Shown here in pieces: positions 49,756-51,954 of a DNA stretch of 55,232 nucleotides (within the stretch, counting starts at the first letter, position 1; each line of letters begins with the position of its first letter). Position numbers and translations under genes: made by a program. The DNA is taken from positions 1 to 55,232 of the IMG/VR virus record IMGVR_UViG_3300049472_000047; one strand, given 5' to 3'. The notes beneath the pieces were generated by a model. The model did not search any database, was not told where the DNA came from, and saw nothing but the letters and a program-made list of their open reading frames with translations. The DNA comes from a virus (lineage: Duplodnaviria; Caudoviricetes).

Positions 49756-50037
49756 ATGTGGTGGGAACGTGCGAAGCCCGGCGACAAGGTGGTCTGCATA
49801 GATGGTGCCTCCGGAACGGCTGAGGTCGGCAAGGTCTATACGATCCTCGATGTCCAATTCTCTGAATTGCATAGCTGGAAGGAATGCCATGTCTATTTCG
49901 ACATCGGCTCAATCCATCCCTGTGGGCAGAAATGGTTTGTCTGCGCATCGTGCTTCAAGCCGGCCCAGCCGAAATCCACGGAAACCGGGATGAAGATGTT
50001 GCGCCGTCTGCTTACCCGGGAACGGGAGCGCGCATGA
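49756..50037 (+). CDS. Hypothetical protein
   Basis: RBS AGGAGG; GDKVVCID...G.VYTI. Confidence 0.6.
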   Translation: MWWERAKPGDKVVCIDGASGTAEVGKVYTILDVQFSELHSWKECHVYFDIGSIHPCGQKWFVCASCFKPAQPKSTETGMKMLRRLLTRERERA

Positions 50038-50900
50038 AAGCCCATCAGAGAATTGTACGTGAAAAAATGGAGACCACGGCCGAGGGAGATATCTTCGGCA
50101 AGTGGTGGGCAGATATCGATACGGACATAAAGAAGGCGGAAGTCAGGGAAGTATCAATACAGGTCGCAAGGGGCATCATCGAGCAGTACGAATGGATGGG
50201 GTGCCTCGCCGCCGTTAATTGGTATTGCTATGGAATATTCTTTGAAAATGTATGCGGTGGGGTCGTTTGCTATGGCCCGGAATACTCGGAGAACTTGGGC
50301 AAGGTCTCAAGAGAGATGGGCCGGGCATGCGCTGATTGGTCGAAATACGGCTATGAGGGCAAGATGATCTTGCTCAATCGCGGGGCTTGCGTCCACTGGG
50401 CGCACCCGCATTCAGCTTCAAAACTCATCCGGGCCAGCATGAAAATGTTGCCGGCCAAATACGAGGTTATCACCGCAACCGTTGATGATTTGGCAGGCGA
50501 AATTGGCACAATCTATCAGGCGTGCGGATTCCACTATGTCGGGTCTATGCGAGATGCAAATCCCAACGTCTCGAGTCGCAAGGGCGATCGCGATGCTTGG
50601 TTGATCAATGGAAAGCTATACGGATCGCGTAACATCCGGCAGAAGTTTGGCACCACTCGATTGGAGGTCGTCCAGCAATCGCACCCGGATGTGCGCGTTG
50701 TCAGGCAAAACTCGAAGGGCCGGTATTTTGCATTTCGCGGGCCATATCTCGTTCGGCGGGCCCATTACGATGCAATTGCTCATCTGATCCAGCCATTTCC
50801 TAAGCGGCACAGTCAAGAGGACGAGCGCGAGACCATCGCGTGTGAGGCAGGTGCAATTCCTGCTGGCCGCTCCAATAATGGGAGCGCGCCTGATGCGTGA
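50034..50900 (+). CDS. mom: Mom-family (GNAT-fold) adenine-modification enzyme
   Basis: A..II..Y, YG.F.....GV..YG, L.R, S..I..S...L, D...GE.G.IYQA.GF.Y.G, K.RY, PFPK. Confidence 0.8.
   Translation: MKAHQRIVREKMETTAEGDIFGKWWADIDTDIKKAEVREVSIQVARGIIEQYEWMGCLAAVNWYCYGIFFENVCGGVVCYGPEYSENLGKVSREMGRACADWSKYGYEGKMILLNRGACVHWAHPHSASKLIRASMKMLPAKYEVITATVDDLAGEIGTIYQACGFHYVGSMRDANPNVSSRKGDRDAWLINGKLYGSRNIRQKFGTTRLEVVQQSHPDVRVVRQNSKGRYFAFRGPYLVRRAHYDAIAHLIQPFPKRHSQEDERETIACEAGAIPAGRSNNGSAPDA
50804..50874 (+). ncRNA. tRNA-Gly-like cloverleaf embedded in the mom 3' end
   Basis: GCGGC/GCCGC acceptor + T-CCA; anticodon arm GCGCG-AGACCAT-CGCGT (ACC); T arm GCAGG-TGCAATT-CCTGC; small D arm GTC/GAC. Confidence 0.75.
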
Positions 50901-51954
50901 CGAATACACCTATCAGGAGATCGTGGACATGCTCCGCGATCATGCCGAAACCATTGCCCATGACTGCATGTCCGGGGTCAAAAAGTCCGGGCCGCGTCTA
51001 TTCGGCGATTGCGGCGGCAAAGCCTCAGTGGTGATCCGGGGCAACAATATTGGGCTTGTCGGGCTATGGCAGGGGCAGCGGCCCGGTCAGCAAGGCGGCA
51101 ATCTGATCCATCTCATCGAGATCAGCCGGGGCATGAGCCATGGTGAGGCCGTTCGATATGCGAAGTCGCATTATCTCGGGATCCAGCAACGCGCCTTCAC
51201 TGAGGAGGAGAAGCGGCAATGGGCATCTCGTAAGGCGGAGATGGAAAAAAGACGGGAGCGCGAAGCCGCCGAAGCTGAGGCCGTCAGGAGGCGCAAGGAG
51301 GGCGATGTCCGCACGATCTGGGGTGATTGCCGCCCGATCCCCGGAACGCCTGCTGAGGCTTATCTGAGGCGACGTGTCGGCACTTTCCAATATCCTGCTT
51401 CCCTTCGATTCCATCCTGACCTTTTCTGCGAACTCACCAATCAACGTCATCCCTGCCTCGTCGCCGGGGTGCAGGCCACGGATCGGCGGCTGATCGCGAT
51501 CTGGCGGATCTTCCTTAGACCCGACGGCACAAACCTGATTGTCGACGGGGTCAAGGTGAAGCGGGGTCTCGGGCCGGCCGCCGGCGGCATGGTCAGGCTT
51601 TCCGCCGTTGGCGAAGTCCTCAATGTCGGGGAGGGGCTGGAGTCGACTCTGGGCGCAATGGCGTTCGACGGATTCAAGGGCTCATGGGCATCGTGCCTTT
51701 CCACGGCGGGGCTTCGCGGTCTCGAGATCCCGGATGTCGTGAAATCGCTCCGGGTCTGGTCCGACGGCGACCGTCACCGATTCGGTAAGCAGGACGGGCA
51801 ACCCATGCAGGAAGCCCCCGGACAGTCCGCGGCGGCCGCATTGGTGGAGAAGGCAAAGCAGCGCCGGATCCCGTGCGAAATATTCACACCTCCCGAGGGA
51901 TCCGATTGGAATGATGTATGGCAGAGGGCGCGGACCGATCTTGCAACGCACTGA
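50893..51954 (+). CDS. Toprim primase-like protein
   Basis: GTPAEAYL..R, LRFHP, K..LGP..GG.VRL, VGEGLE, D.D, P.G.DWND. Confidence 0.85.
   Translation: MRDEYTYQEIVDMLRDHAETIAHDCMSGVKKSGPRLFGDCGGKASVVIRGNNIGLVGLWQGQRPGQQGGNLIHLIEISRGMSHGEAVRYAKSHYLGIQQRAFTEEEKRQWASRKAEMEKRREREAAEAEAVRRRKEGDVRTIWGDCRPIPGTPAEAYLRRRVGTFQYPASLRFHPDLFCELTNQRHPCLVAGVQATDRRLIAIWRIFLRPDGTNLIVDGVKVKRGLGPAAGGMVRLSAVGEVLNVGEGLESTLGAMAFDGFKGSWASCLSTAGLRGLEIPDVVKSLRVWSDGDRHRFGKQDGQPMQEAPGQSAAAALVEKAKQRRIPCEIFTPPEGSDWNDVWQRARTDLATH

What the first reader, a model, noticed from the sequence alone, without database searches (positions are those of the whole stretch)
50034..50900. Mom DNA-modification gene carrying its own non-ribosomal tRNA-Gly-like RNA
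Seen: starting at the last base of the PFPK codons, where the Mom-like core ends, 50804-50874 folds as a cloverleaf with G1:C72, C2:G71, G3:C70, discriminator U73, encoded CCA and anticodon ACC. It lacks U33, has a shrunken D arm, an imperfect acceptor base, T-loop GUGC instead of GUUC, and A51:U63. Known: U73, those acceptor pairs and C35/C36 are bacterial GlyRS identity elements, and staphylococcal non-proteinogenic tRNA-Gly also have GUGC. I recall, unverified here, recent work showing Mu Mom uses glycyl-tRNA as donor for adenine hypermodification. Inference: a two-part system in which the enzyme's mRNA yields a dedicated Gly-charged donor RNA hidden from translation, and whose excision would also clip the mRNA. 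Best candidate for an undescribed system in this window.
Basis: partly seen in the sequence, partly recalled or inferred. Interest (0 to 1): 0.92.

Follow-up and report, generated by a model that had tools for sequence, protein, structure and literature searches.

The report
Mom gene carries its own glycine tRNA
The tail of this phage's Mom DNA-modification gene holds a real, conserved but odd glycine-tRNA-like RNA that standard tRNA finders miss, found beside Mom genes in many other phages, and probably the enzyme's private glycine donor.

Summary
Window 50804-50874 (+) folds as the described cloverleaf, in the last 32 codons of a true Mom-family gene (50034-50900).

ARAGORN, Rfam and folding energy do not mark it. 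Comparison does:
- A covariance model built only from other phages' sequences gives one significant hit in the 55-kb window, at exactly these coordinates (37.4 bits, E 4.5e-7).
- A second model from 62 other sequences also ranks it first (40.7 bits).
- The same RNA sits beside Mom elsewhere. It is fused to the 3' end in all three reading phases, sometimes with Mom's stop codon inside it. In other loci it stands free just downstream, just upstream or 1.9 kb away.
- In one Mom subfamily it is near-universal: 12 of 13 new viral loci and 33 of 39 genome loci.
- Helices covary: 99% of cells paired, 13-17 of 21 pairs with compensatory changes.
- Across 58 distinct copies, G1:C72, C2:G71 and C35 are invariant. 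C36 and U73 are kept in 57, while position 33 takes any base.

Mom is published to use Gly-tRNAGly. The best reading is a dedicated, non-translational glycyl donor co-transcribed with Mom. Expression, processing, charging and donor use are untested. I found no prior description.

The parts
49756..50037 (+). Upstream 93-aa ORF. Its TGA stop overlaps the Mom ATG (ATGA). Function unknown.
   Evidence: ORF list and sequence. No Pfam family. Weak phrog_4927, E 0.0022.
50034..50900 (+). Mom-family GNAT gene, 288 aa with stop at 50898-50900. The ORF reads through the RNA element.
   Evidence: PF25680 E 3.6e-16, residues 36-240. phrog_1384. 983 homologues at E <= 0.001. R116 and S129 align with Mu Mom R111 and S124.
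50034..50807 (+). Conserved Mom core, ending in ...QPFPKR. Homology to all relatives stops here, and phage Mu Mom ends at the matching ...QPYPK.
   Evidence: Homologues match query residues 1 to about 262. Tails after the (Y/F)PKR motif vary. Alignment with Mu Mom.
50804..50874 (+). tRNA-Gly-like RNA element of 71 nt, overlapping Mom codons 257-281.
   Evidence: MFE cloverleaf. R1 37.4 bits, E 4.5e-7, the only significant hit in the window. R2 40.7 bits.
50804..50808 (+). Acceptor stem, 5' strand (G1 C2 G3 G4 C5). It pairs with 50866-50870. Positions 6-7 (50809-50810) are mismatched with 50864-50865.
50812..50822 (+). Shrunken D arm: GUC/GAC stem with loop AAGAG. It carries the family motif UCAAGAG and has no GG dinucleotide.
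   Evidence: CM alignments show three D-stem pairs missing but UCAAGAG matched.
50825..50841 (+). Anticodon arm: stem GCGCG/CGCGU, loop AGACCAU. Anticodon ACC is at 50832-50834, with G at position 33 and A at position 37.
50847..50863 (+). T arm: stem GCAGG/CCUGC, loop UGCAAUU (G where canonical tRNA has U55).
   Evidence: The same loop occurs in L073 and L046.
50866..50874 (+). Acceptor 3' strand (50866-50870), discriminator U (50871) and encoded CCA (50872-50874).
50875..50900 (+). Unconserved read-through tail of the Mom ORF after the element, with its TGA stop. It overlaps the next gene's start.
50893..51954 (+). Next gene, a primase (DUF7146 + Toprim). Its ATG lies 19 nt after the element's CCA, preceded by GGGAG.
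   Evidence: PF23639 E 1.1e-22 and PF13362 E 1.4e-9. phrog_510. Sequence.

Best explanation
The element is a phage-encoded, non-translational tRNA-Gly-like RNA that belongs functionally to Mom.

Proposed mechanism:
1. It is transcribed as the 3' part of the mom message. In other phages it comes from its own small gene beside mom.
2. It is cut out by the host tRNA-maturation enzymes: RNase P at G1 and 3' trimming. Where CCA is not encoded, CCA is added.
3. Host GlyRS charges it with glycine, because it keeps the glycine identity set.
4. Mom uses it as the glycyl donor for N6-adenine hypermodification of phage DNA.
5. Its loss of features needed for decoding keeps this pool out of protein synthesis. 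In that respect it works like the staphylococcal non-proteogenic tRNAGly that feed the Fem transferases.

Shown here: the RNA family is real, its structure is conserved, it is tightly linked to Mom, and its identity positions are fixed.

Inferred: transcription, excision, charging, donor use and escape from translation.

The window's copy is one of the most reduced (5-bp acceptor, 3-bp D stem). It may work less well than the 75-nt copies.
For: (a) Membership of a family.
- R1 and R2 were built without the window and hit only 50804-50874.
- The window shares the family's UCAAGAG D-loop motif and the UGCAAUU T loop.

(b) Covariation.
- A MAFFT alignment of 14 copies pairs 100% of 294 cells. 11 of 21 pairs change on both sides; 0 of 500 shuffles reach this; slid controls pair 32-45%.
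- 33 copies: 99.1% paired, 17 of 21 pairs compensatory.
- 31 distinct rows reached through the Mom protein only: 99.2% paired, 13 of 21 compensatory.

(c) Linkage seen from the RNA side.
- Of 50 viral records holding a T-loop/3'-end pattern hit, 17 carry PF25680. All 17 are the UCAAGAG class. The other 33 records, holding other classes, carry none.
- In 151 Planctomycetota genomes, all 3 strong RNA hits (88.8-92.6 bits) lie 64-76 nt 3' of a Mom gene.

(d) Linkage seen from the Mom side: 12 of 13, 33 of 39, 9 of 51, and 9 of 73 rising to 11 of 73 with R2.

(e) RNA-level, not peptide-level, conservation.
- The element starts in three codon phases, and stops occur inside it.
- Free-standing copies lie just downstream (L045), just upstream (L043) and 1.9 kb upstream (L046/L077) of mom.

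(f) Identity set in 58 distinct Mom-linked copies.
- G1 58/58 and C2 58/58.
- G3 56/58; the other two are compensated (A:U and C:G).
- C35 58/58, C36 57/58, U73 57/58.
- The single A73 copy lies in a contig titled Methanosarcinales archaeon. Archaeal tRNAGly carry A73 (PMC6097841, passages).

(g) Decoding features are relaxed.
- Position 33 is U 27, A 14, G 11, C 6.
- Position 8 is A in 56 of 58.
- A canonical UUC-type T loop occurs in 4 of 58.
- ARAGORN of 20. Rfam tRNA gives 0 hits on the elements in 7 loci.
- In genome G051 the host tRNAGly is canonical and called by ARAGORN, while the prophage element is not.

(h) CCA is encoded in about 40 of 58 copies while the discriminator is fixed. 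This is expected if the 3' end is made by tRNA maturation.

(i) Published biochemistry. Mom transfers glycine from Gly-tRNAGly and needs the terminal riboadenosine. It rejects Gly-tRNAAla, and all three E. coli isoacceptors work (PMC13219725, abstract and passages).
Against: - There are no expression, processing or aminoacylation data. No RNA run holding the stretch was listed.
- Mu Mom works with ordinary host tRNAGly, and Mu has no such element, so the RNA is not required for Mom chemistry.
- About 85% of the window's own Mom subfamily have no element within 2.5-3 kb.
- The window's copy is degenerate and scores about 37-41 bits. Canonical tRNA-Gly genes reach the same range on R1 (36-39 bits).
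- In most fused loci no stop codon separates Mom from the element. Excision would therefore leave a stop-less mom message, which fits a cis role equally well.
- Three strong family members (L113, L125, L130) lie in record fragments with no Mom hit. CheckV puts these records at 23%, 3% and 47% complete.
- The alignments used were fitted to the model, and many rows are close kin.
Confidence: 0.62

Rival explanations
1. A cis-acting tRNA mimic within the mom message. It would be a processing, stability or autoregulatory signal, for example an RNase P cut that ends the mom message or separates it from the primase message, or a site where Mom binds its own mRNA. It would not serve as a glycyl donor.
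For: It is fused in frame to Mom with no stop before it in most loci, and the ORF runs on 7-27 codons into unconserved sequence. In the window the primase start lies 19 nt after the CCA. Mom does not need it.
Against: Free-standing copies lie upstream or 1.9 kb away. C35, C36, U73 and the first three acceptor pairs are strictly kept, which a mere cleavage signal does not need. The one copy in an archaeon-titled contig has A73. CCA is either encoded or replaced by unrelated letters after a fixed discriminator.
Confidence: 0.15
2. In this particular window the element is a decaying relic of the family. It is recognisable but no longer functional, and Mom relies on host tRNAGly.
For: Only 5 acceptor pairs and a 3-bp D stem. 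It has among the lowest scores of the family (37-41 bits against 57-103 for most others). Folding energy is not exceptional. Most close Mom relatives lack any element.
Against: All six glycine identity positions, U73 and the encoded CCA are intact, and the anticodon and T helices are perfect. Anticodon ACC recurs in other members of the same Mom subfamily: with G33 in L043, and with A33 in L219; it also recurs in L023-L026.
Confidence: 0.12
3. An ordinary phage tRNA-Gly gene used in translation, which happens to abut mom.
For: Phages often carry tRNAs. A few Mom-fused copies look nearly canonical, for example L217 and L221 with GG in the D loop, U33 and a UUC-type T loop.
Against: Position 33 is not U in 31 of 58, position 8 is A in 56 of 58, and the T loop is non-canonical in 54 of 58. 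ARAGORN of 20. The window's own copy has anticodon ACC with G33. The position beside Mom is fixed. These elements are not in tRNA arrays, whereas L290 shows what an array looks like.
Confidence: 0.05
4. A chance cloverleaf in GC-rich coding DNA, with the tail being just a disordered peptide.
For: z-score -0.90. ARAGORN and Rfam find nothing.
Against: Two models built without the window hit exactly these coordinates and nothing else. The position matches more than 60 other Mom loci.
Confidence: 0.02

Closest known systems
Staphylococcal non-proteogenic tRNAGly (NP1-NP3), the glycine donors for FmhB/FemA/FemB
   Same: Extra glycine tRNAs that keep the GlyRS identity set. [quoted passage not shown] The window's T loop also has UGC.
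   Different: - Those are chromosomal genes of a bacterium and serve cell-wall synthesis; these are phage genes and would serve DNA modification.
- Those are not fused to an enzyme gene.
- That paper states such tRNAs had so far been detected only in S. aureus and S. epidermidis.
- The phage RNAs deviate further: A8, variable position 33, and a 5-bp D stem with a 6-nt loop.
- Common descent was not tested.
Phage Mu Mom with host Gly-tRNAGly (Silva et al., Nat Commun 2026, PMC13219725)
   Same: The same enzyme family (PF25680) and the same presumed co-substrate type. The window's Mom keeps residues aligning with R111 and S124.
   Different: Mu uses host tRNAGly and has no element near mom. In word searches of the paper's main text and of its 2023 preprint I found no mention of a tRNA-like element or tRNA gene beside mom. 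The supplements could not be seen.
Ordinary phage-encoded tRNA genes
   Same: tRNA-shaped genes carried by phages, with the 3' end either encoding CCA or not.
   Different: Ordinary ones are canonical, detectable, often in arrays and serve translation. These escape ARAGORN (0 of 20) and Rfam, and they sit in or beside one specific enzyme gene.
tRNA-like structures at the 3' ends of plant-virus RNAs, and RNase P-processed tRNA-like ends of long RNAs (recalled, not read here)
   Same: A tRNA mimic at the 3' end of a longer coding or non-coding RNA. Some are aminoacylated and some are cut off by RNase P.
   Different: Those occur in eukaryotic systems, with other folds and other roles. None is known as the co-substrate of the protein encoded just upstream.

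Membership tests
Mom family (Pfam PF25680) | Profile match above the curated cut-off | tested here: met
   59.9 bits against 27.1, E 3.6e-16, residues 36-240. phrog_1384 E 1.2e-18.
Mom family (Pfam PF25680) | Catalytic residues R111 and S124 of Mu Mom | tested here: met
   BLASTP against the 241-aa Mu protein aligns window R116 with R111 and S129 with S124. This assumes the paper numbers the protein as annotated in NC_000929.
Canonical tRNA (Rfam RF00005; ARAGORN) | Detected by standard models | tested here: not met
   No RF00005 match at E <= 10. ARAGORN finds none at default down to -ps70.
Canonical tRNA (Rfam RF00005; ARAGORN) | Four-arm cloverleaf with a 7-nt anticodon loop and a 7-nt T loop | tested here: met
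   The MFE structure. The acceptor has only 5 pairs and the D stem only 3.
Canonical tRNA (Rfam RF00005; ARAGORN) | U8, G18-G19, U33 and T54-Psi55-C56 (established tRNA knowledge) | tested here: not met
   The window has A8, D loop AAGAG, G33 and T loop UGCAAUU.
Bacterial tRNAGly identity set | G1:C72, C2:G71, G3:C70, U73, C35 and C36 | tested here: met
   All are present in the window. PMC7826273 lists the set without the third pair; G3:C70 is from recall. U73 occurs in 231,855 of 232,109 bacterial tRNAGly (PMC6097841).
Bacterial tRNAGly identity set | Actual glycylation by GlyRS | not testable with these tools
   Needs a charging assay.
   R1 37.4 bits, E 4.5e-7. R2 40.7 bits, E 2.5e-6 over 485 kb. 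Canonical tRNAGly genes reach similar R1 scores.
   The window's G1 is the last base of the K codon of PFPK. Others start within -2 to +3 nt of the KR codons.
   A8 and UCAAGAG are present, but the D stem is cut to 3 bp.
Staphylococcal non-proteogenic tRNAGly | TGC or TGT instead of TTC in the T loop | tested here: met
   The window has UGC. The feature is described in PMC7826273.
Staphylococcal non-proteogenic tRNAGly | Member of the staphylococcal lineage; weak EF-Tu and ribosome binding | not tested
   No phylogeny was made. Binding needs experiments.

The most novel reading that the evidence does not exclude
Many phages, including phages or prophages in contigs titled Planctomycetota, Elusimicrobia, Deltaproteobacteria, Anaerolineales, Dehalococcoides and one archaeon, carry a self-contained DNA-hypermodification cassette. 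In it, the 3' end of the enzyme's own message is the precursor of its aminoacyl donor.

Excision of the tRNA-like RNA by RNase P would leave a stop-less mom message ending at the natural C-terminus of the enzyme. Each transcript would then yield either more enzyme or one donor RNA. That would form a built-in limiter of a toxic enzyme.

The RNA would be a second natural class of non-proteinogenic tRNA, and one that current tRNA finders cannot see.
Probability: 0.3. Interest if true: 0.93.

Novelty: new variant of a known kind. Interest (0 to 1): 0.86.

Why it matters
The tRNA dependence of Mom was reported in a 2023 preprint and published in 2026.

- If phages supply their own donor, a DNA-modification pathway has its own private tRNA. 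That would be only the second case of a non-proteinogenic tRNA after staphylococci, and the first in a virus.
- It would explain the odd C-terminal extensions of many database Mom proteins. 25 of 117 listed relatives have tails of 20 aa or more. Where DNA was available, such tails are read-through of the RNA gene.
- It would show a gene layout in which coding sequence and an RNA gene overlap.
- It shows that tRNA finders miss a whole class of tRNA-shaped genes.
- It gives ready tools: a covariance model, and a natural set of donor RNAs for studying how Mom recognises tRNA and how a tRNA is kept away from EF-Tu.

Tried and rejected
- Standard detectors found nothing at the element: ARAGORN at default and relaxed settings and Rfam. 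The only Rfam row over the element was a weak minus-strand Plastid-ycf2 match (20.4 bits against a gathering score of 65.7). I read it as the mirror image of the cloverleaf.
- Folding energy alone is uninformative.
- The peptide-level reading is rejected. Tails differ by phase and stops fall inside the element.
- I considered a phage attachment-site remnant of a host tRNA gene and rejected it. The copies are full cloverleaves, diverged and covarying, and unlike the host tRNAGly of the same genome.
- A viral-contig scan with P0034 gave one locus only, which became the key second example. tblastn against cultured phages gave 6 distant records and no close one.
- Phage Mu and 14 sampled loci of the window's Mom subfamily had no match with filters off; the best was 11.2 bits.
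- Loci with no element: L251, L283, L284, L285, L287 and G166 had no significant hit with R2, filters off (best 14.4 bits, E 0.19, in L284). L254 and L173 are cut off at the Mom gene.
- Family members without Mom: Pfam on ORFs beside L113, L125 and L130 found no Mom.
- The 59.5-bit hit in G146 is an ordinary tRNA-Gly in a tRNA array.
- No RNA holder was listed for the window stretch.
- Structure and complex prediction were not used.
- Prior description: six searches and word searches in three papers found none.
Full report
**1. What is in the window.**

ORF 50034-50900 (+) encodes a 288-aa protein of the Mom family: PF25680 at 59.9 bits against a cut-off of 27.1, E 3.6e-16, and phrog_1384. It lies between a 93-aa ORF, whose stop overlaps its start, and a primase and DnaB helicase.

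The record held for this genome is the window itself, a 55,232-bp virus record.

In a pairwise alignment with phage Mu Mom, window R116 and S129 align with Mu R111 and S124. The 2026 paper reports those two residues as essential. Mu Mom ends at ...QPYPK, exactly where the window reads ...QPFPK.

Relatives found by protein search (983 at E <= 0.001, best 78% identity) cover only about 90% of the query. Locus alignments stop at about residue 262. The last 30 or so residues are therefore an add-on.

**2. The observation.**

The arm-by-arm coordinates are in the parts list.

By itself this would not be convincing:
- z = -0.90, and 38 of 200 shuffles fold as well.
- ARAGORN finds only tRNA-Met at 819-895, and nothing here down to -ps70.
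- Rfam tRNA gives no match at E <= 10.

**3. The turning point.**

Among the 120 best homologues, 117 carry the (Y/F)PKR end motif. Of these, 68 stop within 10 residues, but 25 have tails of 20 aa or more that fall into recurring groups.

The one viral locus related to such a protein (L051) has a 74-nt cloverleaf directly after ...PYPKR:
- a perfect 7-bp acceptor, then U, then CCA;
- T-stem pairs that differ from the window's by compensatory changes;
- Mom's TAG stop inside its T stem.

A pattern drawn from the shared T loop and 3' end matched 88 stretches in viral contigs. Of these, 78 have 6 or 7 acceptor pairs of 7. ARAGORN of the 88, mostly a 76-nt tRNA-Gly(UCC) of large phages. It calls none of the GC-rich class with a UCAAGAG D loop.

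**4. Linkage to Mom, seen from the RNA side.**

I searched 50 of the 88 records for PF25680. I chose them to represent every sequence type and left out duplicates and the weakest pattern matches.
- 17 have Mom, and all 17 are the UCAAGAG class.
- In 15 of them the element lies directly 3' of Mom on the same strand.
- In the other two (L077, L127) it stands free, 1.9 kb upstream.
- The 33 records with other classes have no Mom.

Three further strong members (L113, L125, L130) lie in fragments without a Mom hit.

In 151 Planctomycetota genomes, model R2 gave three strong hits of 88.8-92.6 bits. All three lie 64-76 nt after a Mom match. Below them came one 59.5-bit hit and then a continuum of 74-nt hits at 46-55 bits. 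I take that continuum to be host tRNAGly; I checked only one of them (G051) and the 59.5-bit hit.

Five Mom genes at E <= 1e-18 were found in four of those genomes. Three have the strong element. One (G134) has a weak one, at 27.9 bits, directly 3'. One (G166) has none.

**5. Linkage seen from the Mom side, free of RNA ascertainment.**

For the Mom subfamily of L142:
- 12 of 13 newly found viral loci have the element starting 1 nt after the protein match. The 13th is cut off.
- 33 of 39 genome-collection loci have it.
- The misses are one truncated locus, L251, and four distant Moms of 39-45% identity.

For the window's own subfamily it is a minority trait:
- 9 of 51 viral loci.
- 9 of 73 metagenome loci with R1, plus two more with R2.
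- Some contigs occur in both collections.

Phage Mu has none.

**6. RNA, not peptide.**

In the window's subfamily the element starts right after the R codon (L051, L133, L217, L219, L221), one codon later (L212), inside the R codon (L215, L237), or at the last base of the K codon (the window). That is all three phases.

Mom's stop falls at element position 15 (L215), 61 (L051), 76 (L219) or beyond. L045, L043 and L046 are free-standing copies.

**7. Structure and conserved positions.**

| Alignment | How made | Cells paired | Pairs with changes on both sides |
|---|---|---|---|
| 14 copies | sequence-only MAFFT | 100% of 294 | 11 of 21 |
| 33 copies | fitted to model | 99.1% | 17 of 21 |
| 31 distinct rows (30 Mom-linked copies plus one weak extra hit), reached through Mom only | fitted to model | 99.2% | 13 of 21 |

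For the 14-copy alignment, 0 of 500 shuffles reach the observed values, and slid controls pair 32-45% of cells.

Caveats:
- The two larger alignments lean towards the model's structure.
- Rows are related to one another.
- In the first set, the T-loop and 3'-end letters were fixed by my search pattern.

Across 58 distinct Mom-linked copies, with the window excluded:

| Position | Count |
|---|---|
| G1, C2, C35 | 58 of 58 each |
| C36, U73 | 57 of 58 each |
| G3 | 56 of 58 (the other two compensated) |
| A8 | 56 of 58 |
| A37 | 50 of 58 |
| Position 33 | U 27, A 14, G 11, C 6 |
| Position 34 | C 46, U 8, A 4 |
| Encoded CCA | about 40 of 58 |
| T loop | GGCAGUU 28, GGCGGUU 12, canonical UUC-type 4 |

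The fixed positions are the glycine identity set named in PMC7826273. U73 is near-universal in bacterial tRNAGly, whereas archaeal tRNAGly carry A73 (PMC6097841). The single A73 copy (L281) lies in a contig titled as a Methanosarcinales archaeon. This is one case, and binning may err.

In genome G051 the host tRNAGly(UCC) has U8, GG, U33 and UUCGA, and ARAGORN calls it. The prophage element has A8, AAGAGA, A33 and GGCAG, and is not called. Neither encodes CCA.

**8. The window's copy.**

Models built without it hit it alone: R1 at 37.4 bits and R2 at 40.7 bits. It keeps every identity position, U73, CCA, the UCAAGAG motif and the UGCAAUU loop.

It has lost two acceptor pairs and two D-stem pairs. 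Its anticodon ACC recurs in its Mom subfamily (L043 with G33, L219 with A33, L023-L026). Canonical tRNA-Gly genes reach similar R1 scores. Its family membership therefore rests on score, motifs and position together.

**9. Mechanism.**

Published work shows that Mom transfers glycine from Gly-tRNAGly, needs the terminal riboadenosine, rejects Gly-tRNAAla and accepts all three E. coli isoacceptors.

An RNA that keeps what GlyRS reads, drops what the ribosome needs, and travels with mom is best read as Mom's own donor. It would be made with the enzyme and kept out of translation. The staphylococcal non-proteogenic tRNAGly are the precedent.

A fixed discriminator with optional CCA points to tRNA-type 3' maturation. 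Because most fused loci have no stop before the element, excision would leave a stop-less mom message. Whether this limits Mom is speculation.

All of these steps are inference. No RNA data were available.

**10. Novelty.**

I found no description in six literature searches, or in word searches of the Mom papers and a jumbo-phage survey. Supplements could not be read.

PMC7826273 states that extra non-proteogenic tRNAs had so far been detected only in two staphylococci.

I file the finding as a new variant of a known kind: a dedicated non-proteinogenic tRNA, here viral, overlapping the gene of its presumed user, and invisible to standard tools.

Noticed in passing
L061, L062, L064, L068, L070, L071 and about 20 more loci (viral contigs): A 76-nt tRNA-Gly(UCC) with T loop UGCAAUU and no GG in its D loop recurs almost unchanged in large phage contigs of up to 216 kb. 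ARAGORN calls it. No Mom was found in the 7 such records searched, three of them 96-100% complete. Its user, if it is not translation, is unknown.
   Followed up: partly
L082, L083, L101, L104, L111, L129 (viral contigs): Phage tRNA arrays hold two canonical tRNA-Gly genes followed within about 90 nt by a third, 67-nt tRNA-Gly-like gene with T loop UGCAAUU. ARAGORN does not call the third one. No Mom was found in the three such records searched.
   Followed up: partly
L281 (genome contigs; title: uncultured Methanosarcinales archaeon): This is the only Mom-linked element with discriminator A instead of U, matching the archaeal tRNAGly rule. It lies 133 nt after a Mom homologue. It is a single case.
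   Followed up: partly
window 49756-50037 (+): A 93-aa Cys/His-rich ORF whose stop overlaps the Mom start (ATGA). Its position recalls Mu com, the zinc-finger activator of mom translation, which overlaps the mom start in Mu. It has no Pfam family.
   Followed up: no
P0002, P0004, P0019, P0020, P0022, P0031, P0037, P0038, P0053, P0068, P0114; L001-L005: A different recurring Mom tail of about 15 aa after YPKR, of the type ...D(L/I)P.T.LDGY.R. R1 and R2 find no element there. It may be a real peptide motif.
   Followed up: no
L046 and L047, positions 2897-2971: A canonical tRNA-Met lies 30 nt upstream of mom in the phages whose tRNAGly-like gene stands free 1.9 kb upstream. The window also has a lone tRNA-Met, at 819-895.
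   Followed up: no
L290 (G146:C115): A dense array of about 20 tandem tRNA-like hits within 2.2 kb in a Planctomycetota genome.
   Followed up: no
L043, L045, L219, L023-L026: A sub-class of the element has a T stem with a bulged A (3' strand CCGACC). Some of these copies have no encoded CCA.
   Followed up: no
P0023 (462 aa): One Mom homologue continues after YPKR into a domain of about 200 aa, which I did not examine.
   Followed up: no
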